From assembly GCA_963719495.1 (NCBI GenBank), contig CAVRCI010000013.1, forward strand, positions 480,001-544,000: 64,000 bases of DNA. Reading direction: 5' to 3'. Shown one piece after another: positions 20,005-31,797 of the stretch. Origin of the DNA: an uncultured Verrucomicrobiae bacterium. Lineage in GTDB: Bacteria > Verrucomicrobiota > Verrucomicrobiia > Chthoniobacterales > JAATET01. Made by a program: the position numbers and the translations under genes. Below the pieces are notes generated by a model. It made no database searches. It saw only the letters and a list, made by a program, of their open reading frames with translations, and was not told the origin of the DNA. Every line of letters starts with the position of its first letter. Position 1 is the first letter of the stretch.

Positions 20005-20113
20005 GTCCAACCCCACGCCCACCCGTTGGCACGCCACCCAACTCGAACCCAAGCGCCCTTCGCGCCCCCGCGTCACCAATCAGCTCAGCCGGTAAACCTG
20101 AAAAGAAAATGAG

Positions 20114-20243
20114 ACAGGATTAACAGGATTAACGGGATGATCAGGAATGACTGATGAGGCGGGGATTGTTCACCCTCTGAGTGAGCGGGGACTTTGTTCG
20201 AAGTCACTGAAATTCAATCCCTTCAATCCTGGAAATCCTGTCC
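20114..20243. repeat. Inverted arms of degenerate 9-mer tandem repeats (ACAGGATTA / AATCCTG)
   Basis: gacaggattaacaggattaacgggat ... aatcccttcaatcctggaaatcctgtc. Confidence 0.7.
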
Positions 20244-20295
20244 ATTCCGGGATTTAGGTTAAAACGGAGGCCAGCCTTGACGATGCGGTGCGCAA

Positions 20296-20661: not shown

Positions 20662-20672
20662 GTCGGATATTC

Positions 20673-21340
20673 GAGGAAGGGGTCAGTCCGTTCAAGAGGA
20701 AGGGGTCGAGGAAGGGGTCAGTCCGGAATGGCACTGCTTTAAGCCAGTTTTCGGGGAGAAAGATGGAGGGAGATCCGCTGATTTGGTAGATTAAAGTGTG
20801 AGCAGCAACCAACCATTTCTCAGCGGATTCCCAACTCAAATATGTGGCAAAATGCGGCGGCGTCTGCAAGCGGTCATCGCGGAGCGACGGAGCGCATTGG
20901 CAGAGTCATCCATAGCGACCTACGCGCTGCAGTTTTCCCACATCCTGCCGGCCGATTTTTTGGAGTCACTCTCGCTCACGCAACGGGTTCGGCAGTATTG
21001 CAATGTGGTCGTCTTCTGGGTGTGGCTAAGGAAGGGGTCAGTCCGTTCAATGGTTCAGAATCGCCCAACGGACGGGCCCAGAGATCCCGCAGCATGTGTT
21101 TTGAACCAATGAACGGACTAACCCCTTTGAGACCCCTTTGACGGCGTGACGGCGCGGTCGGACGCGGGGACTGACGGGCAATTTCGGACGACCGATCGGA
21201 CTTAGCAGCCGAGCGTTGGGCGGCAATTTCTGAACCAATGCACGGACTGACCCCTTTGACGGACTGACCCCTTTGACGGACTTGAACCAATGCACGGACT
21301 GACCCCTTTGATGAACCAATGCACGGACTGACCCCTTTGA
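20673..21340. repeat. Cluster of GGGGTC-headed motifs (aaggggtcagtccgt[t/g]ca[t/a]tggttca), both orientations
   Basis: GGGGTC at 20679, 20702, 20714, 21034; GACCCC at 21131, 21249, 21266, 21301, 21330 (variant at 21120). Confidence 0.92.
20726..21029 (+). pseudogene. IS4-family left end plus truncated transposase N-terminus
   Basis: Begins gaatggcact like the IS at 25712; ORF from 20798 (NQPFLSGFPTQICGK...RVRQYCNVVVFWVWL) parallels the N-terminus of the 25720..27225 transposase and breaks off at a GGGGTC motif. Confidence 0.75.
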
Positions 21341-21756
21341 AAAGACATGCTCGACGCGCACGCGAATCTTGCTGATGGCGTGGTTGGATTTGCGGGTGGC
21401 CTCGTCCAGCGGGCGATTGCGGTTGGCTTTTCGCATCATGAACTCCTGCGCGTCGCAGCGCTCGAGGACATGGACTTCGCTTTCCGCTGAATAATTGGCG
21501 CTGGCGGCTAGCGCCGCCTGATCAGTTTCATCCACGAGTTGGGCGAAGACTTGGCTGTCATGCACGTTGGCAGGTGTCGTGGCGTGCGTGTCGATGAGCT
21601 TGGTCTTGGCGTCGATTTTCGCGTGGTTCTTGTAGCCAAAATGGGTCTCCGCGTTCTTTTTCGTCCAACACGCGTCGCAATCCTTTTGGCGACCCCGGGC
21701 CGTTCCCGCTTCGAAACCAGCGGGACGTTCGCCTTTTTTGATCTGCGCATTCTCCT
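21341..21756 (-). pseudogene. IS5-family transposase internal fragment
   Basis: RQKDCDACWTKKN..HFGYKNH...IRVRVEHVF, cut at a GGGGTC motif on one side and by another IS end on the other. Confidence 0.85.
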
Positions 21757-22030
21757 CAGCGGTTCTCATTTTGGTATTGTTGAAGTGCCGGAGGGCGGTC
21801 GGTTGACTCGATGGGGAAGTGAATTGGAGCGCGGACTTGTACTTTTTGGGCAGTACCGGCATGGCTTGGACCCATGAAAACCACGCCGCCCGGATTGGCC
21901 CGCATTATCGGGAAGTTCCGTGCCGTGGCGGGGGGACTTCCCGATCCGCGCAAGGGTAAGAGCACGAGTTTTTCGATGGCGGACATCGCGCTGAGCGCGT
22001 TTTCGGTATTCTTCACGCAGAGCGCGTCGC
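21757..22030 (+). pseudogene. IS end (cagcggttctcattttgg) plus ~52-aa transposase N-terminus, ISNCY-like
   Basis: LPDPRKGKSTSFSMADIALSAFSVFFTQSAS, then loss of coding character; interrupts the IS5 gene. Confidence 0.65.
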
Positions 22031-22744
22031 CTTCGTCAACTGGCATCCTCGCGCATGCACGGGGCGTGACAGCGCCCCGGCTCTGCGGGGGTGTTGGCGC
22101 GAGCCGTGCGCGCCCGCTCGATGCGAGGATGATCGGCTCTCCGATCACCGGAACGATCCGGAGCGGCTGGCTTACACTCGGGAGCGGACCACGCGGGGGC
22201 GGGGCCGCTCTGGGTCCCGTCCCGGCGTGGGCTGCAGGGCTGGTGAACCGGGCATTGCCGTATGGCGTCGCTTCTGTGTTGCGGCCTGGCGCGGGACCTG
22301 CCCGACCCCGCGCTCTGGCGGGGTCGGAGGCATTATATCACCCAACTCGCGGCAACGTATTAGCCGAGGGAGCGCTCTGGCGACCGGTGCCGCGGAGGGC
22401 CCCTTTAGGGAGGCACCGCGTCAGGCACGGCTATACGGTGCCGCTGTTGGGCGATGTCATGCCGCGCAGGTCCCGTGCCCCGAAGGGCGAGCGAAGCGAA
22501 GCAGGCCGCAATCGTAACCCAACCGGAGCGCTCTGGCGCAGGGTCGAATTTGCAGGACGGGGGCGGGCGGGATGGTGAGGGATCGAGTTACGAGAGGCGA
22601 GCGGCGGCGCGTCGGATGCCGGGTGGCAGGGGCATTAGCATCCGGCGTGACGGCGCGGTCGGACGCGGGAGCTGGCAAACAATTGAGAGAGCAAATGTGT
22701 CATTATGAATGACCGACCCCTCAGCGATGAATGACCGACCCCTC

Positions 22745-24078
22745 GGTATGAACGGGAACATTGGTTACAGATAAACCGACCACATAGGTAACACTTAGAG
22801 GGTTAGTTTTCATGGCTTGCGGGAGCAAGCTTCGACTCCCAACGCTCGGCGTAGGCCGTAGGCCGGAGCCGAGCGTTGGGAGTCCGATCCAGCCACCCGA
22901 GCTTCACATTGGCATATCGAACGGCCAGCAGCCCTGTCTCCGGCGATTCCTCCACGGCCACATCGACGCCGATCAGTGACTCGCCGACGAAGCAGTTGTT
23001 TCCATTCAAGGAGATGAAGCCTGCTTTGTTCACCCGCTTGGTTTCCACCCCTGCCTCGTAGAGCGCAGGTTTGATGCGTTCGTCCAACCGGCGCAGGGAG
23101 GGTTGATAGGCTTGCGCCGGTGTCCTCATGCCGATGCCCTCGTGCGGACGCTCGTCGTTAAAGACTCTGCGCCACCGGTCAAAACGTTGCTGTTGGGCCC
23201 AACGGTTCGCGCTTCCCGGCTGACAGCATTCGGCCTTCATCGTGCGATGCATCCGTTCGTGGCAGCCGTTGTCCTGCGGACAGCCAGGTCGGCTGAACTG
23301 CACTTCGATACCCAATCCGATCCACCACACGCTCAGTCTGCTCAATCCCGCTGGTCCCATCGACGCGAACGGGGAGCCATTGTCCACGCGAATGATCTCC
23401 GGCAGCCCGTAGCGCTTGAATACACTGCGGAACTCGCGCTGCGTCCACTTTACCGTCATGTCCGGCATCGCCTCCGCTTTCATCAGGTATCGACTGTGCA
23501 GATCGCTCACCGTCAACGGATCGCAACGCTCGCCGTCACCCAGCAGGAACCATCCCTTGTAGTCCACTCCGAGCACGTGGTTACAGCGTTCCGGCGGCGT
23601 CAGCGTCCCTCGTTCCACCGTGAAGAGGCCTCCTCGCCGCTTGCGCGCCTTCACCAGCCCGTGCCGCTTGAGAACCTCTCCCACCGTGCTTACGACCGGT
23701 AAACGATCCACTTCGTGCTTCACTTCGAGCACTCGCTGGATCTTCTTCGGCCCCCACGTCGGATGTAACCGCTTTTCGGCCACAATCAGCCGCTCCACCG
23801 CTTCTTCTGTCCTGCTCGTCACCGTCTTCGGGGCCCGGCTCCAATCCTCTAGTCCGCCCATCCCGTGGGCCTCGTATCGCGCCTTCCACTTGTGACCCGT
23901 CTTGCGCGAGATGCCGAAACTTTCGCACAGCTCCACCATCGTGAACCGGTCGCTCGTCAGCAAACTTACAAATCTCTGTTTCTGTTCCATCGGTGACTCG
24001 TTTTGCCAGGGCATTCACCACCCTGAACTGTCACCCATGTCCTCGGTCAATCTGTCACCTATGTCCTCGGTTCATACC
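22745..24078 (-). mobile_element. Complete IS481-family element
   Basis: Ends ggtatgaac/gttcatacc; tandem subterminal repeats tgtcacc[c/t]atgtcctcggt; flanks cccctc/cccctt (6-bp duplication, 1 mismatch). Confidence 0.85.
22803..24014 (-). CDS. IS481-family DDE transposase
   Basis: MPW..HTH (ELCESFGISRKTGHKW), WGPKKI, VDYKG, IRVDNGSPF, PQDNGCHERMHRTMK, FNDERPHE. Confidence 0.93.
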   Translation of the reverse strand: MPWQNESPMEQKQRFVSLLTSDRFTMVELCESFGISRKTGHKWKARYEAHGMGGLEDWSRAPKTVTSRTEEAVERLIVAEKRLHPTWGPKKIQRVLEVKHEVDRLPVVSTVGEVLKRHGLVKARKRRGGLFTVERGTLTPPERCNHVLGVDYKGWFLLGDGERCDPLTVSDLHSRYLMKAEAMPDMTVKWTQREFRSVFKRYGLPEIIRVDNGSPFASMGPAGLSRLSVWWIGLGIEVQFSRPGCPQDNGCHERMHRTMKAECCQPGSANRWAQQQRFDRWRRVFNDERPHEGIGMRTPAQAYQPSLRRLDERIKPALYEAGVETKRVNKAGFISLNGNNCFVGESLIGVDVAVEESPETGLLAVRYANVKLGWLDRTPNARLRPTAYAERWESKLAPASHEN

Positions 24079-24102
24079 CCCCTTTTTGACCGACCCCTTT
24101 TC

Positions 24103-24807
24103 GTTCTCCACAAACCCCACCGGTTACCCAAGGGCGTTCTCACCAACGAGCAAGTGTTGCGGCTGCTCGCGCAGCCTGAGCTTGCCACCCCCAACGGCTA
24201 CCGCGACCGCACCATCCTCGAACTGCTCTACTCAAGCGGCTTGCGCGGCCTCGAACTCGCCCGGCTCACGATTTACGACGTGGACTTCAAGGACGGCACC
24301 GCCCGCGTCGTCCAGGGCAAAGGCAACAAGGATCGCATCGTCCCGCTCGGCCGCACCGCCGCCGGATACCTCCGCGAATACCTGGCCCACATCCGCCCGA
24401 TCCTGCTCGGCCGGGCCGTCCGCCAGAAAGCCGTCGAGCGTCTGTTCCTCACCGGCCGCGGCGGCGCGTTCAACTCCAACGTGCTGCGGCGCTTGGTCCG
24501 CCGCCATGCCAAGGCCGCGGGCCTGCCGCCTACCACCGCCGCCCACGGCCTCCGGCACGCGTGCGCGACTGAAATGCTCAAAGGCGGAGCGAACGTCCGT
24601 CACGTCAAGGAACTCCTCGGCCACGCGACGTTGACGACCACGCAGGTTTACACCCGCGTCATCCCCGTCGATCTCCAGAAAGTCCACGCCGCCACGTCCC
24701 CCAGCGAACGCCGCCGCAAGCTCGACGTTCCCGAGTTCGAGCTGGTCCGGTTCCGCGACCGGAAAAACAAGACCAGCCTCTCCCAAACCCCGTGGAAACG
24801 GCGCTGA
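24103..24807 (+). pseudogene. XerC/D-like tyrosine recombinase, catalytic domain only (5' truncated)
   Basis: RDRTILELLYSSGLR, GKGNKDRIVP, HGLRHACATEML, LLGH...TTQVYT; N-terminal SAM domain replaced by the GACCCC motif and IS481 end. Confidence 0.85.
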
Positions 24808-24838
24808 ACGGGATCGCCACGGCTCCGCCAGCTGCCGT

Positions 24839-25327
24839 ATGATCCCCGACGTGCGCACGACTCCGGTCCTCTACCTCGATACCTCCGTTCTCGGCGGCTA
24901 CTACGACGACAAATGGGAGGAAGACACGGTTGCGCTCTGGCAGCAGATGGAGGCCGGACAATGGCGGTTCGTCAGCTCCGACATCACCACCAAGGAAATT
25001 GAAGGCGCTCCTGAAAATGTCCGCGATCTTTTTGCCCGGACGTTCCCGCTTGGCACGCTGCTCGAAGTCACCGACGAAATGGAAGACCTCGCCGCCGCCT
25101 ACATCGCCCAGGGCGTCGTCACCCAAAAATACGAGGACGACGCCCTCCACGTCGCCGTCTGCACCGTCGCCCGGATCGACTTCCTCGTGAGTTGGAACTT
25201 CCGGCACATGGTCAGCGCCCACCGCAAAGCCGGGTTCAACGGCGTCAATCTGTTGAAAGGATACCCGCACGTCACTATCGTGAACCCACTGGAACTCATC
25301 TATGAAAACCGCAACAAAAACCTTTGA
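24839..25327 (+). CDS. PIN-domain protein (toxin-like)
   Basis: YLDTSVLGGYYD, DDALHVAVCTV, LVSWNFRHMV. Confidence 0.88.
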   Translation: MIPDVRTTPVLYLDTSVLGGYYDDKWEEDTVALWQQMEAGQWRFVSSDITTKEIEGAPENVRDLFARTFPLGTLLEVTDEMEDLAAAYIAQGVVTQKYEDDALHVAVCTVARIDFLVSWNFRHMVSAHRKAGFNGVNLLKGYPHVTIVNPLELIYENRNKNL

Positions 25328-25493
25328 TGGCGTGGAGATGTCCCGGCGGCTGCGCGAGGACACCAGCCGTCTGCTTCACTCCATGAACCGAGAGCAACGG
25401 CGTGAATGTCTGCGCGAGGCCCGCGAACGCTACGCCGCCGAGCTTGCCGCCCGCCAATCCAGGCAGCCGCTCGAAACCGCCTCTTCTTCCTAG
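25302..25493 (+). CDS. Small putative antitoxin partner of the PIN protein
   Basis: 63 aa, KTFDGVEMSRRLRE; overlaps the 3' end of the PIN gene. Confidence 0.65.
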   Translation: MKTATKTFDGVEMSRRLREDTSRLLHSMNREQRRECLREARERYAAELAARQSRQPLETASSS

Positions 25494-25719
25494 CCGTTGC
25501 TTCGTTCCCGCCGTGGTCGCCTTCCTCAAAAACGCGCCTCCGCTCCGCGTCCGCCGTTCCCGTTCCGGGATCGCGCGCCCGCACGCGCGAAGCTTTGGGG
25601 AGTGGCCGCGAATAAAGTTGGTTCCCGTGGAAATGGAATGGAAAGCTAAATAGAGCCTGTCCGAAAAGAGCGGATCAAGCATTGAAAGGAGTAATCAAAG
25701 GGGTCAGTCCGGAATGGCA

Positions 25720-27225
25720 CTAAGATAAGGGGGATTTGGGAGGATTTTCGACCCCGGATTTTCGGTGAGGGAGCGGTCCCATTTGGCGGCGGGGCTTGGT
25801 CAAGAGGCGATAGTTTTTGGGGCGGCGTTTTCTGACTCTGGGTTCGGATCGGTCTGGGCGCAGCGGAACGAGATCGCTGGCGATGGCAGAGAGCATGGCG
25901 TCGAGGATGGCGGAGATGGTGCGGGGTTTAGCGTTGGCCCCACTGGTGGCGTTGGCGAACTGACGGACGGTATCGAGAGTGCCCTTGAAGGAGACGCGAT
26001 CCAGGTCGAGTTCGTGAATCAGGGCGGCTTTCTGCATGACGCTGCGGACGAGGTTGTAGGCGATGAAGTGCATGAGGAGTTCGCGCTCGATGAGGGCCGG
26101 GGATTTGCAGCGCAAGACGTCCATGTTGAGAGCGATCTTGATCTCGCGAAAATGGAGTTCGACGCTCCAGCGGCGGAAGTAGAGGGAGGCGAGATCATCG
26201 GCGGGAATGGCCGTCTCGGAGAGCAGCAGGGTGGTCACCAAGGTCACGGTCTGGGTGCGGAAGCCGGGTTGGGCGATGGTGTAGCGCACGACGCGCACTG
26301 GAATATCCGCGGGCCAGAGCGCGAACTCCTCGGGCGTCATCCCGCGTGGTCGCTGCGCGGGGCGCTTCCAGACAATGTTCACATCGAAATTTGCCGACTT
26401 GGGAAGCTGAGCACCAATGGCCTTGCGGATCCGTTTTTCGGGCAAGCGCATCAACGAGTCCACGCCCAGGGAGAGCAGACCGGCAATAGCCCCGAAGGAA
26501 CAAAATCCCCGGTCGGTGAGAACGAGATCGCCACGATTGAAAATGCTCCAAAGGTTGCGAAAAAGCCGGGTCTCATGGGTGAGACGATCGCCCCAATCCG
26601 CCTTGAGAAGAGCTCCGGTGAGAAGGCAGAAAACGCCAACCAGATTGATTGCGGGAAAGCCACACCCCGGCTTCTGACTGCTGCTCTGCGGCCAACGATC
26701 TTGATTGGCTTCGGTGTCGGGCATGGAGACACCCGTGCCGTCCACGAGCCGTACCTGGCGACCATGCCAGAGAGCGCCGCTGGGAATATTGGCTTCCATG
26801 CGCACGGCCAGATGGGTGTTGATTCCTTCCAGTGTCGCCACCGGGAGCTTGGCTCGCGCCTGGCAATAAGCGCTGGTATTGCCACTCATGACCTCGGTCT
26901 CTGTAGTGCCAGACGGTTTGGATTTTCTGCTCACCAAAGCCATGACCTTGCACACGGCTTCGCGACAGGAACCGTTCGGGGTTTGCACCTGATCCAGGAA
27001 GCTCCAGAAGACACGTTCGAGCGAGAAAATGCGCTTGCGGCTGTGAGCACAGCTGGGCGTTGAGCTAAGTAACTTCCGTGAAATGTAGGAGCCAAAGACG
27101 TTGACCAACACCGAGAGCGAACCGCTCTGCCTGAGCTTGGCAAGGGCCTGCGTCAGGGGTGAGACTGGCGGTCGTCCAAAAAGCCGCGAACTAAAATTTG
27201 GGAAAAACGGGTTGAAAGAACGCAT
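25720..27225 (-). CDS. IS4-family transposase (501 aa)
   Basis: SAYCQARAKL, LVDGTGVSMPDT, TDRGFCSF, LYFRRWSVELHFREIK; start taken at MRSFNP. Confidence 0.93.
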   Translation of the reverse strand: MRSFNPFFPNFSSRLFGRPPVSPLTQALAKLRQSGSLSVLVNVFGSYISRKLLSSTPSCAHSRKRIFSLERVFWSFLDQVQTPNGSCREAVCKVMALVSRKSKPSGTTETEVMSGNTSAYCQARAKLPVATLEGINTHLAVRMEANIPSGALWHGRQVRLVDGTGVSMPDTEANQDRWPQSSSQKPGCGFPAINLVGVFCLLTGALLKADWGDRLTHETRLFRNLWSIFNRGDLVLTDRGFCSFGAIAGLLSLGVDSLMRLPEKRIRKAIGAQLPKSANFDVNIVWKRPAQRPRGMTPEEFALWPADIPVRVVRYTIAQPGFRTQTVTLVTTLLLSETAIPADDLASLYFRRWSVELHFREIKIALNMDVLRCKSPALIERELLMHFIAYNLVRSVMQKAALIHELDLDRVSFKGTLDTVRQFANATSGANAKPRTISAILDAMLSAIASDLVPLRPDRSEPRVRKRRPKNYRLLTKPRRQMGPLPHRKSGVENPPKSPLS

Positions 27226-27267
27226 CCAATACAAGTATATATACTTAATCGAAGCCGCCAGTGAATT

Positions 27268-27621
27268 ATGCCGAAAACCGCTAAAAAATCCGACCTCACC
27301 GCCCGGGAAATCCGTCGACTCGAAGCACGCTACAGCACCCTGGCCTCGGAGCTGGGAAGCTTCCCCGAATTGAGTCAGGGAAGCGTGATGCCCCAACCTC
27401 CCCGGGCTTGGCGGTGGACCCGCAAAGTTGCCGGAAAAACCGTCACCGTTGGGCTCAGTCCCCTCAAAGCCCAAAGGATGAAACTAGCCATCGCCAACCA
27501 TCGAAAGCTGGAAAAGAACGTTACCGAGATGCGCGAGATAACCCAGAAACTCATCTTGAGAACCCCAGATCCCTCCCCGATTCCCAAACGCGAGCCGCCT
27601 CCTAAATCCTCCTTAAGTTAG
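27268..27621 (+). CDS. IS accessory protein (DUF6788-like)
   Basis: LSQGSV...WRWTRKVAGKTVTVGLS...IANHRKL; stop codon lies in the IS IR. Confidence 0.75.
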   Translation: MPKTAKKSDLTAREIRRLEARYSTLASELGSFPELSQGSVMPQPPRAWRWTRKVAGKTVTVGLSPLKAQRMKLAIANHRKLEKNVTEMREITQKLILRTPDPSPIPKREPPPKSSLS

Positions 27622-27629
27622 TGCCATTC

Positions 27630-27880
27630 GGGTCAGCCGATGAATTCTTCAAAGCGGTAGGGGTCAGCCGATGAATTCTGACGACGCTTAGCTAGCGGAA
27701 GGGGTCACGTGAAGGGGTCGGTCCATAGCATTGGCACATTCGGCGCTCGCAACTTTCCATCGATTTTCGACTTTCACTGTCGGGCTCAGATTCGGAGAGG
27801 GAAGTGGGGGTCAGAAGTGGGGGGTCAGTATGCAAAAACGAATTCCTACTTCCCGCGGAAAGGGGTCGGAAAGGGGTCGT
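27630..27880 (+). repeat. Second cluster of GGGGTC-headed motifs
   Basis: GGGGTC at 27660, 27701, 27714, 27807, 27821, 27862, 27873; gggtcagccgatgaattct occurs twice. Confidence 0.85.
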
Positions 27881-28049
27881 GGGCGGGAGCGAAAATTCAG
27901 CGGGTGACGTCACCGCTCCCGTCAACACCACGGACGATCCGGTGGGCTTGGTCGCACAGCCGACACACATCACGGCGAGCGCGCAGGCGCAAAAGAAACG
28001 GGACCTTCGCCGAGTCTACCCCGTTGCGCAATGGAGTCGCGCGGGCATC

Positions 28050-28342
28050 ATGCGCCGGATGCCGCCCGCGACCGATCCGACCATCGTCCTGACCGAAAAA
28101 TCCCTCACGGGCATGGGCGGTTGGCAGATTTGGAAGCAGGCGCGAGCCATCCACGAAGGCGGTCACGTGACCGAAGCGACCTACGAGCCGCCGTTGCTCA
28201 AAGGACGAGTCTCGGAGGGCGGTAAAGAATTCCTCGCGGCTTCCGCTTCAACAACCGCATCGACGTCGACAACCTGTGCCCCTGCCGCGACTCCCGCGTT
28301 CGCGTTCTGATCTGCGCTCACTCCATCGCCGTCGTAGAACGT
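28050..28342 (+). pseudogene. N-terminal fragment of a SWIM zinc-finger protein (SNF2-helicase type), frameshifted and truncated
   Basis: LTEKSLTGMGGWQIWKQARAI..., then in another frame FNNRIDVDNLCPCRDSRVRVLICAHSIAVV (CxC...CxH); ends at gtcagtccgttcattggttcaga. Confidence 0.75.
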
Positions 28343-28572
28343 GTCAGTCCGTTCATTGGTTCAGAATTCGCATCCGATGCCCGCTTACTCAAAGAAATCC
28401 CCCCCCGAATTACCGCCGGTTCGCGGCATGCGCCCGCGTCGTAACGCCGGATGCAGATTGCACCGACCGCCCGGCATCCGACGCGCCGACGCTCGCTTCC
28501 GGTAGCTCGGAGGTCCGGGCTAATTCGTCGGCGGGGGCGAGCTGATGGTTGGTTCAGAGTGGGTGAACCGAG

Positions 28573-28731
28573 GGATGTGATTGCGAAAAACGTCACCGGG
28601 GCGAGACGAAGAAAGTGGCACCGCGGAGATTGAAGACGGCTGGCGCGGCGCGACCAGCCCTACCCAGTCGGGTAGGGAACGTCGCGCCGCGCGTTCCCTC
28701 GCTCTCTCGGCCTACTTTCGCAATCACACCC
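28573..28731. mobile_element. 159-bp MITE with GG[A/G]TGTGATTGCGAAA ends carrying back-to-back GTAG REPs
   Basis: 16-bp IR (1 mismatch); perfect 9-bp direct repeat tgaaccgag at 28564-28572 and 28732-28740. Confidence 0.88.
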
Positions 28732-28880
28732 TGAACCGAGTCTTGCGAGCGTTCACAATTGACCTGCCGTCGGTCGTGGCGGCGTTCGGTGATCGCCGTT
28801 CGCTTCTCGCCCAGGTGGTGCAACCGTATGCTCACGCCCGACATTGGCTACTGATCCCAAGTCATGGACGCTTCCCAACG

Positions 28881-29843
28881 ATGTCTCCCACCCGCCTTTT
28901 CTCCTTCCTAGCCGTCGCCACCGCGACCCCGCTCTTTGCCGCCGATTCGCCGAATCTTTATTGGCCGGGCACGTTCGAGGGGGCCGTCTTCGGGGGGAAC
29001 TTCAGCTCCGCGAAAAACGTCCAACTCGAGACCGGCACCAATCACACGCCGGGCGGAACCCGGGCTTGGAAGATCCAACCGGGCTACCAACACCTTGAAC
29101 TGCTCACCGACGGGACCGGCGATTTCGAAGTCTCCTTCCACGCCCGCGCCGAGAGTCGACTCGAAGTCGTGCTGAAGGTCATCAGTCCGGGCGCCGACGG
29201 CAAGCTAGCGGAGGACCCTCATTCCATCACGATCGAGCCCTCCGAAGACTGGCGGGAATACCGCGCGGTCGTGCCGGTGAGCGATCCCTACCCAGGTCCC
29301 CGCACCGGCGAGATCCTCGTCACCGCCTTTCAATCCGGCGACGCCGACATCTGGATCGACGATCTGGAAGTGCGCCGAGCGAGCGAGGATCCGGACGCGC
29401 CGTCGCCCGCTCCCGCCCCGGACGCCACGACCTCGATCCCGCTCGGCGGCGAAAGCGAACTCGCCGTGGACCAGGCGCCAATTCCCTCCTCGATTTCCCG
29501 CGACATCCCGGTCGACGGACTGGCCGGAAACCATGTCCGCGTCTGGCTCGACGTCACCTACGACTCCGTTGCCGAGCCCGCGAAGAATTGGGCCGGCGTC
29601 GTCGCCGAGCTTCGCGCCACCGACGCCGCCGGATCGTCCACCGTCCTCGAATCGACTCCGGCGCCCTTCTGGCTTCCCATCGGGCACGCGGCCCCCGCGG
29701 GCGAGCCGCGCACGATCCGGGCTGAATACTCGATCCCCGCCGACGCTCAATCACTCACCTTCCTCGCGCAACTCCAGCCGGGCGCGCAGTCAAACGGTGC
29801 CCGCCTCGAAAATCACCGGATCGAACGTCTCTCCGAAAAGTAG
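28881..29843 (+). CDS. Secreted protein with probable tandem carbohydrate-binding-like beta-sandwich domains
   Basis: Signal peptide MSPTRLFSFLAVATATPLFA; VSFHARA, EDWREY, IWIDDLEV; Pro/Ala linker. Confidence 0.65.
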   Translation: MSPTRLFSFLAVATATPLFAADSPNLYWPGTFEGAVFGGNFSSAKNVQLETGTNHTPGGTRAWKIQPGYQHLELLTDGTGDFEVSFHARAESRLEVVLKVISPGADGKLAEDPHSITIEPSEDWREYRAVVPVSDPYPGPRTGEILVTAFQSGDADIWIDDLEVRRASEDPDAPSPAPAPDATTSIPLGGESELAVDQAPIPSSISRDIPVDGLAGNHVRVWLDVTYDSVAEPAKNWAGVVAELRATDAAGSSTVLESTPAPFWLPIGHAAPAGEPRTIRAEYSIPADAQSLTFLAQLQPGAQSNGARLENHRIERLSEK

Positions 29844-29944
29844 CTCCCTTGGGTGGCGGAAAAAGCGCCGCCTACGACTGGCTCAGTGCCAGCGTCCCGG
29901 CAACGTGTTCGTAAAACGGATCGCCGGGCACGATCGAGCCGAAA

Positions 29945-31325
29945 AGGGGTCGGTCATTCATAATGACACATTTGCTCTCTCAATTGTTTGCCAGCTCCCG
30001 CGTCCGACCGCGCCGTCACGCCGGATGCTAATGCCCCTGCCACCCGGCATCCGACGCGCCGCCGCTCGCCTCTCGTAACTCGATCCCTCACCATCCCGCC
30101 CGCCCCCGTCCTGCAAATTCGACCCTGCGCCAGAGCGCTCCGGTTGGGTTACGATTGCGGCCTGCTTCGCTTCGCTCGCCCTTCGGGGCACGGGACCTGC
30201 GCGGCATGACATCGCCCAACAGCGGCACCGTATAGCCGTGCCTGACGCGGTGCCTCCCTAAAGGGGCCCTCCGCGGCACCGGTCGCCAGAGCGCTCCCTC
30301 GGCTAATACGTTGCCGCGAGTTGGGTGATATAATGCCTCCGACCCCGCCAGAGCGCGGGGTCGGGCAGGTCCCGCGCCAGGCCGCAACACAGAAGCGACG
30401 CCATACGGCAATGCCCGGTTCACCAGCCCTGCAGCCCACGCCGGGACGGGACCCAGAGCGGCCCCGCCCCCGCGTGGTCCGCTCCCGAGTGTAAGCCAGC
30501 CGCTCCGGATCGTTCCGGTGATCGGAGAGCCGATCATCCTCGCATCGAGCGGGCGCGCACGGCTCGCGCCAACACCCCCGCAGAGCCGGGGCGCTGTCAC
30601 GCCCCGTGCATGCGCGAGGATGCCAGTTGACGAAGGCGACGCGCTCTGCGTGAAGAATACCGAAAACGCGCTCAGCGCGATGTCCGCCATCGAAAAACTC
30701 GTGCTCTTACCCTTGCGCGGATCGGGAAGTCCCCCCGCCACGGCACGGAACTTCCCGATAATGCGGGCCAATCCGGGCGGCGTGGTTTTCATGGGTCCAA
30801 GCCATGCCGGTACTGCCCAAAAAGTATAAGTCCGCGCTCCAATTCACTTCCCCATCGAGTCAACCGACCGCCCTCCGGCACTTCAACAATACCAAAATGA
30901 GAACCGCTGAGGAGAATGCGCAGATCAAAAAAGGCGAACGTCCCGCTGGTTTCGAAGCGGGAACGGCCCGGGGTCGCCAAAAGGATTGCGACGCGTGTTG
31001 GACGAAAAAGAACGCGGAGACCCATTTTGGCTACAAGAACCACGCGAAAATCGACGCCAAGACCAAGCTCATCGACACGCACGCCACGACACCTGCCAAC
31101 GTGCATGACAGCCAAGTCTTCGCCCAACTCGTGGATGAAACTGATCAGGCGGCGCTAGCCGCCAGCGCCAATTATTCAGCGGAAAGCGAAGTCCATGTCC
31201 TCGAGCGCTGCGACGCGCAGGAGTTCATGATGCGAAAAGCCAACCGCAATCGCCCGCTGGACGAGGCCACCCGCAAATCCAACCACGCCATCAGCAAGAT
31301 TCGCGTGCGCGTCGAGCATGTCTTT
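29945..31325. repeat. Probable source copy of the 1381-bp inverted duplication
   Basis: Begins with aggggtcggtcattca; here the IS5 gene continues to its stop and right end. Confidence 0.93.
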
Positions 31326-31634
31326 GGACGAATTGCGCAGATGGGCATGGATTACTGCCGATCCATCGGAGTGCGACGCGCCAGCCGGCACAACAGCCTT
31401 TGTAATCTGGTCTACAATCTTGATCGCTACGCCATCCTCATGCGCGGGGCGTGAAAATCCCACCGAATCCCTCCTCGATGGTCCGAATTCCGGGCGGCTC
31501 GGGCTCGAATGGTCCGTCGTCCGGTCTCCAAACCGTTGCTTTTGGCCCCGCCGATGTCGCCAAATGACACGTCCGATCAAAAAATTTCCATCGATTCTCT
31601 CGTTGCGTCAAAATCAGCGTTACCGGAGGTGCCC
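30910..31634 (+). mobile_element. IS5-family remnant (3' half of transposase ending 31454, plus right end)
   Basis: FGYKNH, VRVEHVFG, LVYNLDR; terminal gaggtgccc followed by ttaa. Confidence 0.82.
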
Positions 31635-31797
31635 TTAATCATAATCTTTGTCTTTGTCGCTCCTCACCCGCTCGCGGCACCCCGCGATACCGATACGGAG
31701 ATACACGGAGAGTAAGACAAAGATTAAGATTATGAGAAAGAGTGGGTGCCGGCGGAGTCCCGTGTCCTTCCAATAACCAATAACCAACAACCAATAA
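31635..31797. repeat. Inverted hexamer-repeat arms plus heptamer tandem (ccaataa)x4
   Basis: taatcataatctttgtctttgtc ... gacaaagattaagattatgagaaagag; similar to 57304..57405. Confidence 0.7.

What the first reader, a model, noticed from the sequence alone, without database searches (positions are those of the whole stretch)
20670..29965. GGGGTC-motif-driven gene-fragment capture island: a candidate undescribed DNA-shuffling system
Seen: about two dozen GGGGTC-headed motifs in 9 kb, in a few subtypes (ggggtcagtccgt[t/g]cattggttca, ggggtcggtcattca, ggggtcagccgatgaattct). I did not notice these extended forms elsewhere in the window. They sit at the points where unrelated DNA is joined: the break in the IS4 fragment (21030), the break in the IS5 fragment (21340), the 5' break of the tyrosine recombinase (about 24100), the 3' break of the SWIM gene (28342) and both ends of the duplicated 1381-bp segment. 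Inference: the motif is an enzyme-recognised end or origin that mobilises adjacent DNA one-endedly and builds a mosaic of fragments. From memory and unverified, Y1/HUH (RAYT-like) transposase genes often end in ...GACCCC, so such an enzyme is a candidate trans-acting factor. Tn3-family IRs also begin with GGGG, an alternative. No candidate enzyme gene lies in this window.
Basis: partly seen in the sequence, partly recalled or inferred. Interest (0 to 1): 0.88.

Follow-up and report, generated by a model that had tools for sequence, protein, structure and literature searches.

The report
TIRtron end repeats scarring an island
The repeated GGGGTC motifs are the end repeats of an already named but biochemically untested family of single-strand DNA transposases (TIRYT), and the broken genes beside them look like scars of cutting about five bases outside the repeat and rejoining, mixed with ordinary insertion elements that land in the same repeats.

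Summary
The motif cluster is real, but the motifs are not new. They are TIRtron terminal inverted repeats (GGGGWSAS; Di Nocera 2013; Quentin 2018, subclass 2.1). This genome carries six intact HUH/Y1 genes of that kind outside the window, two framed by two of the three named subtypes. The third subtype frames such a gene in a relative. No Tn3 transposase was found, and 0 of 18 repeat pairs show a target duplication. The junction claim largely holds and sharpens: copied pieces end at variable points and are joined to DNA that starts about 5 nt outside GGGG (19 of 26 independent tandem units; 15 of 110 outermost repeats, against 0.38% of random sites). This fits nick, extend and rejoin by TIRYT in trans, as modelled for TnpA-REP. 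Other junctions are IS4, IS481 and IS110-like insertions into the repeats. Most joins are local. Only one copies a non-mobile gene from another contig, and its other end is an IS4 end. A dedicated capture system is therefore not shown, and reads do not formally bridge the junctions. The scan has reported TIRtrons and stacked ends before on other DNA. Verdict: known kind, with mechanistic detail not found in print. Interest 0.5.

The parts
20674..20725 (+). Stack of three TIR-A heads (20679, 20702, 20714), each preceded by the tag AGGAA; left edge of the island
20726..21027 (+). 302-nt end fragment of an IS4-type element (family inferred from its GAATGGCACT end; no profile hit for the fragment), inserted after the first 12 nt of TIR-A and broken off
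   Evidence: 100% to C7:41464-41780 and 99% to C2:755692-755996; donors continue; no Pfam or NCBIfam hit
21029..21130 (.). Transposase-less mini-element: tag + TIR-A (21034, +) facing tag + TIR-A (21125, -)
   Evidence: folds only through the facing pair, z -6.0
21131..21340 (-). Stack of TIR-A heads (21136, 21254, 21271, 21306, 21335), all with the tag TCAAA, units of variable length
21341..22721 (-). Inverted copy of the 1381-bp segment: starts at TIR-B (22720), ends inside an IS5-like gene and is joined to TCAAA-TIR-A
22692..24079 (-). Copy of the 3' TIR-B end of the TIRtron at C13:309.6 kb together with an IS481-like element (22745-24078; ORF 22803-24014) inserted at the repeat's outer edge
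   Evidence: 99.9% to C13:309624-308237; IS481 profile E 1e-59, below its cut-off
24079..24102 (-). TIR-B head stub (24097) with the tag GAAAA, at the recombinase break
24103..24807 (+). 5'-truncated XerC/D-like tyrosine recombinase (catalytic domain only)
   Evidence: PF00589 E 8e-39; matches XerC/D profiles from about position 98-134 onward; no near-identical donor in the genome
24839..25493 (+). Two-gene pair resembling a PIN-type toxin-antitoxin module (label recalled from motifs; no profile hit)
   Evidence: 54% paralogue at C2:759222
25695..25711 (+). Tag TCAAA + first 12 nt of TIR-A, the target of the IS4 insertion
25712..27629 (-). Complete IS4-family element (transposase plus DUF6788 ORF) with unmatched flanks (TIR-A on the left, TIR-C on the right)
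   Evidence: NF033592 199 bits, over cut-off; PF20586
27630..27900 (+). Cluster of TIR heads of subtypes C (27660), H (27714) and E (27821), with stubs
   Evidence: subtype C frames a TIRYT gene in G005 (L036); subtype E frames C1:181973-183022
28050..28334 (+). Frameshifted 5' fragment of a SWIM-finger gene (label recalled from the CxC..CxH motif), broken at 28334
   Evidence: 84% paralogue at C13:578193-578454 continues
28335..28370 (+). Tag TAGAA + variant TIR-A (CGTG in place of GGGG); the same variant is itself tandemly duplicated from -5 on C14
28881..29843 (+). Intact 320-aa ORF (no Pfam hit), a 98%-identical copy of C14:28420-27461; followed by the cut 3' tip of the next C14 gene
29941..29975 (+). 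Tag (G)AAAA + TIR-B, joined to the end of the 4.2-kb C14 copy
29945..31636 (+). Direct copy of the 1381-bp segment, continuing into the 3' part and probable right end of an IS5-like element; right edge of the island, no TIR there
   Evidence: end position inferred from a contig's loose end at 31636 and the sequence

Best explanation
The island is a pile-up of TIRtron ends. SHOWN: the motifs are the terminal inverted repeats of subclass-2.1 TnpA-REP (TIRYT) genes, which lie elsewhere in the genome, each framed by its own subtype. Repeat-anchored units start near 5 nt outside GGGG and end anywhere, from 11 nt to over 1 kb inside. IS4-type, IS110-like and IS481-like elements sit inside the repeats. 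INFERRED: a TIRYT acting in trans binds its repeat and nicks the strand that reads tag-GGGGTC about 5 nt outside the G run. It holds that 5' end as a phosphotyrosine while the freed 3'-OH is extended. A 3'-OH at a variable position, on the same new strand or on another molecule, then attacks the phosphotyrosine. Same-strand closure gives the stacked ends; closure with another strand gives the truncations at 21027, 21341, 24102, 28334 and 29941. IS insertions into the repeats, and recombination between IS copies, supply the remaining junctions. The mosaic is most likely a by-product of end processing rather than a selected capture system.
For: Six 311-354-aa Y1 genes are framed by inward-facing GGGGTC[AG]G repeats. 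TIR-A frames C11:169.3 kb and TIR-B frames C13:309.6 kb; TIR-C frames a gene in G005. All six keep NH[FY]H and Y[IV]HLNP. The model's best structural match is TnpA-REP 4er8 (E 1.6e-7), with a weak DnaA DNA-binding-domain match (E 0.016). Tandem units: 51 of 69 clean units (of 120 pairs) fit a start at -5; with one unit per array, 19 of 26 (of 48 arrays); in same-genus loci, 41 of 61 (of 102 pairs). Donor breaks lie at offset 3-6 for 15 of 110 outermost heads, against 76 of 20,000 random sites and 14 heads spread over offsets 10-40. Tags recur with unrelated flanks (TCGAA at 9 flanks on 5 contigs; 42 TIR-A pairs share 5 nt or more, 14.4 expected). C-terminal TIRYT fragments of three lengths are anchored at the 3' repeat on C15. 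In the genus, the repeat pattern occurs in the 3 of 5 genomes whose best TIRYT-A homologue is 56-69% identical, and not in the 2 at 43-46%. The chemistry and the nick-extend-rejoin model are published for E. coli TnpA-REP (PMC3333891, passages). IS4-type ends: 17 of 50 have a perfect 11-nt TIR flank and 34 of 50 match at 8 of 11 or more, against 0.3% at random.
Against: No TIRYT has been assayed in the papers found, so the enzyme link is by association. The offset is not strict: 7 of 26 independent units do not fit -5, 51 of 120 adjacent pairs were not clean duplications, and 76 of 110 heads had no traceable donor. In 80 distant loci only 12 of 26 units fit -5, with offsets up to 16, and none of 7 donor breaks lay at 3-6. 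No empty site was found, in the genome or in relatives, where synteny is broken here. Public contigs do not bridge the junctions by the tool's 31-nt rule. The last 1.4 kb of the C14-derived piece differs from C14 at about 35 positions while the first 2,827 nt are identical, so strain mixing or several events may be involved.
Confidence: 0.72

Rival explanations
1. The repeats are passive landing pads: DDE and IS110-type elements insert into them, and IS-driven deletions, homologous recombination and replication slippage make all the junctions, with no TIRYT activity.
For: IS4-type ends are strongly tied to the repeats. Five of 5 near-full IS110-like copies start right after the repeat head. 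The IS481 junction is copied from C13:309.6 kb, and the window's IS4 has unmatched flanks. IS targeting of REPs is known (PMC1525189 abstract; PMC11208160 passages).
Against: The breaks at 21027, 21341, 28334 and 29941 abut a tag plus repeat, not an IS end, with 0-2 nt of shared sequence. Slippage does not predict a start fixed near -5 across unrelated flanks and genomes.
Confidence: 0.15
2. The junctions are assembly artefacts or a chimera of strains in a metagenome-derived genome.
For: The stretch is found only in environmental metagenomes. No contig spans it or formally bridges a junction. Identity to C14 changes abruptly.
Against: The joins lack long homology and carry a motif-fixed tag. 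The same geometry appears in separate assemblies of relatives. One X1 contig (21324-21864, no differences) crosses the 21340/1 join, though with only 17 nt on the repeat side.
Confidence: 0.08
3. The motifs are Tn3-family inverted repeats, and the 5-nt tags are 5-bp target duplications.
For: Tn3 ends begin with GGGG and make 5-bp duplications (recalled).
Against: No PF01526 match in a genome 98.6% complete, while the control rang in 2 of 14 genomes. None of 18 facing pairs has a duplication next to GGGG. Tags are absent from the donor sequences, so they travel with the repeat. The repeats frame Y1 genes.
Confidence: 0.02

Closest known systems
TIRtrons / TIRYT and TIR repeat families (Di Nocera, De Gregorio, Rocco 2013, PMC3733652) = TnpA-REP subclass 2.1 (Quentin et al. 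2018, PMC6006769) = RAYT group 1 (Bertels et al. 2017, mapped by Quentin)
   Same: GGGGWSAS-headed, non-palindromic repeats facing inward around long Y1/HUH genes with a C-terminal helical tail; repeats also dispersed singly, in pairs and in clusters.
   Different: In the passages read, neither paper maps a cut position, describes a carried 5-nt tag, links the repeats to gene truncations or reports IS targeting. Subtype B reads GGGGTCGG, one letter off the consensus.
E. coli TnpA-REP / BIME amplification model (PMC3333891, Fig. 7B legend)
   Same: HUH nick, 3'-OH extension and attack on the 5'-phosphotyrosine, adding one unit in tandem.
   Different: There the enzyme binds a hairpin and cuts at C|T at varied distances. 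Here single repeats fold weakly (z -1.4, -1.9, +0.6), the start is set by distance rather than by a dinucleotide, and units can run over 1 kb into unrelated genes.
IS91/ISCR one-ended rolling-circle transposition and Helitron gene-fragment capture (recalled; search listings only)
   Same: HUH chemistry, one fixed end and one variable end, mobilisation of adjacent DNA.
   Different: Those use Y2/Rep-type enzymes carried in cis. Here a Y1 TnpA-REP relative would act in trans on two-ended elements. The Y2 search was uninformative because its control did not ring.
REP-targeting insertion sequences (PMC1525189; IS621 in PMC11208160)
   Same: IS elements of several families insert at fixed points in a dispersed extragenic repeat.
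   Different: The target here is a TIRtron end repeat rather than a palindromic REP.
tnpA-REP subclass 2.1 beside prochlorosin genes (bioRxiv 10.1101/2020.03.09.984088)
   Same: Same enzyme subclass; many truncated C-terminal gene fragments; diversifying recombination proposed.
   Different: Those authors found no inverted repeats and later noted no strong evidence for causality. Here the fragments are anchored at repeats.

Membership tests
TIRtron TIR / TIRYT (subclass 2.1) | Repeat head fits GGGG[AT][CG]A[CG] | tested here: met
   Subtypes A, C, D, E, F read GGGGTCAG; B and H read GGGGTCGG (one mismatch) (consensus)
TIRtron TIR / TIRYT (subclass 2.1) | The same repeats frame a Y1 transposase gene in inverted orientation | tested here: met
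   A at C11:169265/170342, B at C13:309596/310595; C at G005 L036
TIRtron TIR / TIRYT (subclass 2.1) | HuH motif and Y---NP catalytic motif | tested here: met
   Six of six genes; invariant H60, H62, Y121, N125, P126 in 11 aligned proteins; PF01797 in 11 of 11
TIRtron TIR / TIRYT (subclass 2.1) | Long protein with a C-terminal HTH (Bac_DnaA_C, HTH_23 or HTH_28) | tested here: inconclusive
   Length 311-354 aa is met. None of the three Pfam families hit; the model matches DnaA-DBD 3pvp weakly (E 0.016, probability 1.0, TM 0.68 by target). Placement in Quentin's tree was not tested.
TIRtron TIR / TIRYT (subclass 2.1) | No REP-type hairpin in the single repeat | tested here: met
   z -1.4, -1.9, +0.6 for A, B, C
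TIRtron TIR / TIRYT (subclass 2.1) | Enzyme binds and cleaves the repeat | not testable with these tools
   No assay found in print in searches
Tn3 family | DDE_Tnp_Tn3 transposase in the genome | tested here: not met
   0 matches; control rang in 2 of 14 genomes
Tn3 family | 5-bp target duplication flanking paired ends | tested here: not met
   0 of 18 facing pairs
IS91/ISCR | Y2 transposase (PF04986) | tested here: inconclusive
   0 matches, but the control rang nowhere
REP/RAYT (GTAG-tagged) | Palindromic repeat with a GTAG tag | tested here: not met
   NF047646 at 54.6 bits, below its cut-off of 80

The most novel reading that the evidence does not exclude
TIRYT enzymes are trans-acting, one-ended HUH transferases. 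They nick a fixed distance outside a non-hairpin repeat and join that end to any free 3'-OH, so they copy and fuse kilobase pieces, whole genes included, across the chromosome. This would be a bacterial counterpart of Helitron-style gene-fragment capture, building variable islands and synteny breaks in a subclass present in about 15% of strains (figure from PMC6006769).
Probability: 0.4. Interest if true: 0.78.

Novelty: new member of a known kind. Interest (0 to 1): 0.5.

Why it matters
Subclass 2.1 is the second-largest group of Y1 enzymes (PMC6006769), yet a search of the library found only two works that use its name, and the passages read of them report no activity. This genome supplies a precise prediction: which strand is cut, where (about 5 nt outside GGGG), which enzyme goes with which repeat, and what the products look like. 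That makes the activity directly testable. If joins to distant DNA are common, these repeats are an overlooked source of gene truncation and duplication. Their use as targets by three IS types would also explain why such islands accumulate mobile debris.

Tried and rejected
The Tn3 reading was rejected. The IS91/Y2 search was uninformative. An empty-site search by joining the flanks of 18 repeat pairs found none. A search for an empty site in five same-genus genomes failed because the flanking genes have other neighbours there. A first, loose test of repeat ends against any GGGGTC[AG] gave only 24 observed against about 15 expected among 3,349 ends; the signal appears only with extended repeats and offsets. 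Public contigs from four runs did not bridge the junctions; a contig joint 21253-25712 and others may come from other loci and were not used; the small shares in X2-X4 say nothing on habitat. The single-sequence model of the C-terminal tail was poor (pLDDT 69) and was not searched. 'Subtype G' proved to be a repeat head fused to an IS110-like end rather than a separate repeat. Earlier-finding look-ups by place and by sequence returned nothing.
Full report
OBSERVATION. The cluster is real. There are 26 GGGGTC heads in 20670-29965 against 43 in the remaining 54.7 kb, and all 16 extended heads of the window lie between 20679 and 29946. They are not peculiar to this island. The genome (G000, 4.54 Mb, 16 contigs; window = C13:480001-544000) holds 65 GGGGTCAGTCCG, 38 GGGGTCGGTCATTCA and 5 GGGGTCAGCCGATG, and a second island on C14 is as dense.

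WHAT THE MOTIF IS. PF01797 (Y1_Tnp) has 12 matches in the genome and none in the window. Six are stand-alone genes of 311-354 aa, each framed by inward-facing GGGGTC[AG]G repeats of its own subtype. Subtype C frames such a gene in the same-genus genome G005 (L036). All six keep NH[FY]H and Y[IV]HLNP. An AlphaFold model (mean pLDDT 80) matches TnpA-REP 4er8 best (E 1.6e-7) and a DnaA DNA-binding domain weakly (E 0.016); Pfam did not find the HTH families. This is the TIRtron/TIRYT arrangement with its GGGGWSAS motif (PMC3733652, passages), equated with TnpA-REP subclass 2.1 (PMC6006769, passages). In the genus, the repeat pattern occurs in 3 of 5 genomes, those whose best homologue of the A-type enzyme is 56-69% identical, and not in the two at 43-46%; kin are not independent. 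Tn3 is excluded: no PF01526 match, and no target duplication next to GGGG in 18 of 18 facing pairs.

ANATOMY OF THE ISLAND. Most pieces are copies of DNA found elsewhere in the genome. 20711-21027 equals C7:41464-41780 (an IS4-type end). 21341-22721 is the inverse of 29945-31325. 22692-24079 equals C13:309624-308237, the 3' end repeat of the B-type TIRtron plus an IS481-like element. 25699-29941 matches C14:31601-27360. Three kinds of junction occur. (i) Tag joins: a copied piece stops at an arbitrary base and is followed by 4-6 nt that the donor lacks, then a repeat head (21027|AAGGAA, 21341|TCAAA, 28334|TAGAA with a CGTG variant head, 29941|AAAA; 24102|GAAAA is inferred, as no donor exists). 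(ii) IS insertions into the repeat: IS4-type at 20726 and 25712/27629, IS481-like at 22745/24078. The complete IS4 has a TIR-A flank on the left and a TIR-C flank on the right, so the left end of the C14 copy is an IS4 event or recombination between IS4 copies, not a tag join. (iii) Junctions without any motif, near 21752 and 22030, inside the duplicated segment.

GENOME-WIDE TEST OF THE JUNCTION CLAIM. Of 120 adjacent head pairs, 69 are clean tandem duplications. Of these, 51 are compatible with a start 5 nt outside GGGG, 31 with -4 and 22 with -6; the inner ends vary. Units within an array are not independent. Taking only the outermost unit of each array, 26 of 48 arrays are clean and 19 of those fit -5. 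Of 110 outermost heads, 34 have outside DNA that is a cut copy of a sequence elsewhere. For 15 the break lies at offset 3-6, for 3 at offset 2 (the IS481 end), for 2 at 8-9, and for 14 it is spread over 10-40; random sites give 76 of 20,000 at 3-6. By my reading of that list, 4 of the 15 are in this window and most donors are local or are mobile-element pieces; only 29941 clearly joins non-mobile DNA from another contig. Tags recur with unrelated flanks: TCGAA at 9 flanks on 5 contigs, and 42 TIR-A pairs share 5 nt or more against 14.4 expected. In 45 loci from five same-genus genomes, 41 of 61 clean units (102 pairs) fit -5, and 8 of 19 donor breaks (112 heads, loci pooled across genomes) lie at 3-6. 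In 80 more distant loci the rule loosens: 12 of 26 clean units fit -5, offsets reach 16, and none of 7 donor breaks lies at 3-6. A looser first test showed little (24 against about 15).

IS TARGETING. Of 50 GAATGGC[AG]CT ends, 17 have a perfect 11-nt TIR-A flank and 34 match at 8 or more of 11 positions, against 0.3% of random sites. Five of five near-full copies of an IS110-like element (family recalled from motifs) begin right after a repeat head. This parallels IS targeting of REPs (PMC1525189, abstract; PMC11208160, passages). Target duplications of about 10 bp and strong site preference are described for IS4 subgroups (PMC2266710, passages and section 7).

MECHANISM. HUH enzymes leave a 5'-phosphotyrosine and a free 3'-OH. 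For E. coli TnpA-REP, cleavage and strand transfer were shown in vitro, and tandem growth was modelled as nick, extension of the 3'-OH, and attack of a new 3'-OH on the first phosphotyrosine (PMC3333891, passages). The polarity here fits: fixed 5' start on the tag-GGGGTC strand, variable 3' end. I infer that a TIRYT in trans nicks about 5 nt outside its repeat, that closure on the same strand stacks ends, and that closure with another strand truncates or fuses neighbours. The geometry and its enrichment are shown; the enzyme, the strand nicked and the source of the 3'-OH are inferred. Confidence 0.72. Rivals: IS activity and slippage alone (0.15), artefact or strain chimera (0.08), Tn3 (0.02).

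LIMITS. Four public runs, all kept as contigs, hold parts of the stretch. None spans it; one X1 contig crosses the 21340/1 join without differences but with only 17 nt on one side, under the tool's 31-nt rule, and 154 pieces were not listed. The C14-derived piece is identical for 2,827 nt and then differs at about 35 sites in 1.4 kb, so its history is not one simple event. No empty site was found; in relatives the flanking genes have other neighbours. The labels SWIM, PIN, RapA and IS110 are recalled from motifs, not from profile hits.

NOVELTY. Searches found two works using TIRYT or TIRtron. In the passages read, neither gives a cut site, a carried tag, gene truncation or IS targeting; their figures and supplements (Fig. 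9 and Additional file 5 of PMC3733652) were not seen and could show stacked ends, and subscription journals are not covered. A preprint (10.1101/2020.03.09.984088, whole text) proposed diversifying recombination by subclass 2.1 and noted C-terminal fragments, without inverted repeats and with a later caveat. PMC5581495 (passages) added nothing on mechanism. Earlier notes of this scan on other genomes reached the same family call and saw stacked ends. I read them after forming my reading (notes); they are unchecked and are not counted as support.

VERDICT. New member of a known kind, with a testable mechanistic signature not found in print. Interest 0.5. The boldest reading not excluded, a trans-acting one-ended gene-shuffling activity, has probability about 0.4 and would deserve about 0.78.

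Noticed in passing
G000 C14:87118-88833, C14:89105-90820, C9:184096-185718, C4:310002-311610, C2:757359-758965: A 1.6-kb element with a 405-aa IS110-like protein (family recalled from motifs, not scanned) sits in five places, each starting right after a repeat head: a REP-like target for a possible bridge-RNA recombinase.
   Followed up: partly
G000 genome-wide, e.g. C2:755418-755683, C6:139299-139673, C7:43096-43360: Small (265-375 bp) IS4-type miniature elements with GAATGGC[AG]CT ends insert into the same repeats, often with 11-bp duplications.
   Followed up: partly
G000 C15:2281-5105: A TIRYT gene is followed by three C-terminal fragments of such a gene (aa 259-316, 70-316, 126-316), each next to a 3' repeat.
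   Followed up: partly
G000 C10:1249-4536, C13:378005-381487, C14:100566-103301: Y1_Tnp domains lie in frame inside three long ORFs that read as LeuRS, AlaRS and RecG (names recalled from the sequences).
   Followed up: no
window 19917 / 31746 versus L048-L054: The island lies at a synteny break: in five relatives the RapA-like gene (name recalled) is preceded by DNA that maps to G000 C13:705-714 kb, about 200 kb away.
   Followed up: partly
window 20076-20262 and 28571-28731: Two other dispersed repeat families of about 160-180 bp, each with many copies in the genome; the second flanks a short Y1 gene at C8:183677.
   Followed up: no
G000 C14:27360-36400: A sister island with 17 extended repeat heads, a tandem duplication anchored at a TIR-C tag, and the source of window 25712-29941.
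   Followed up: partly
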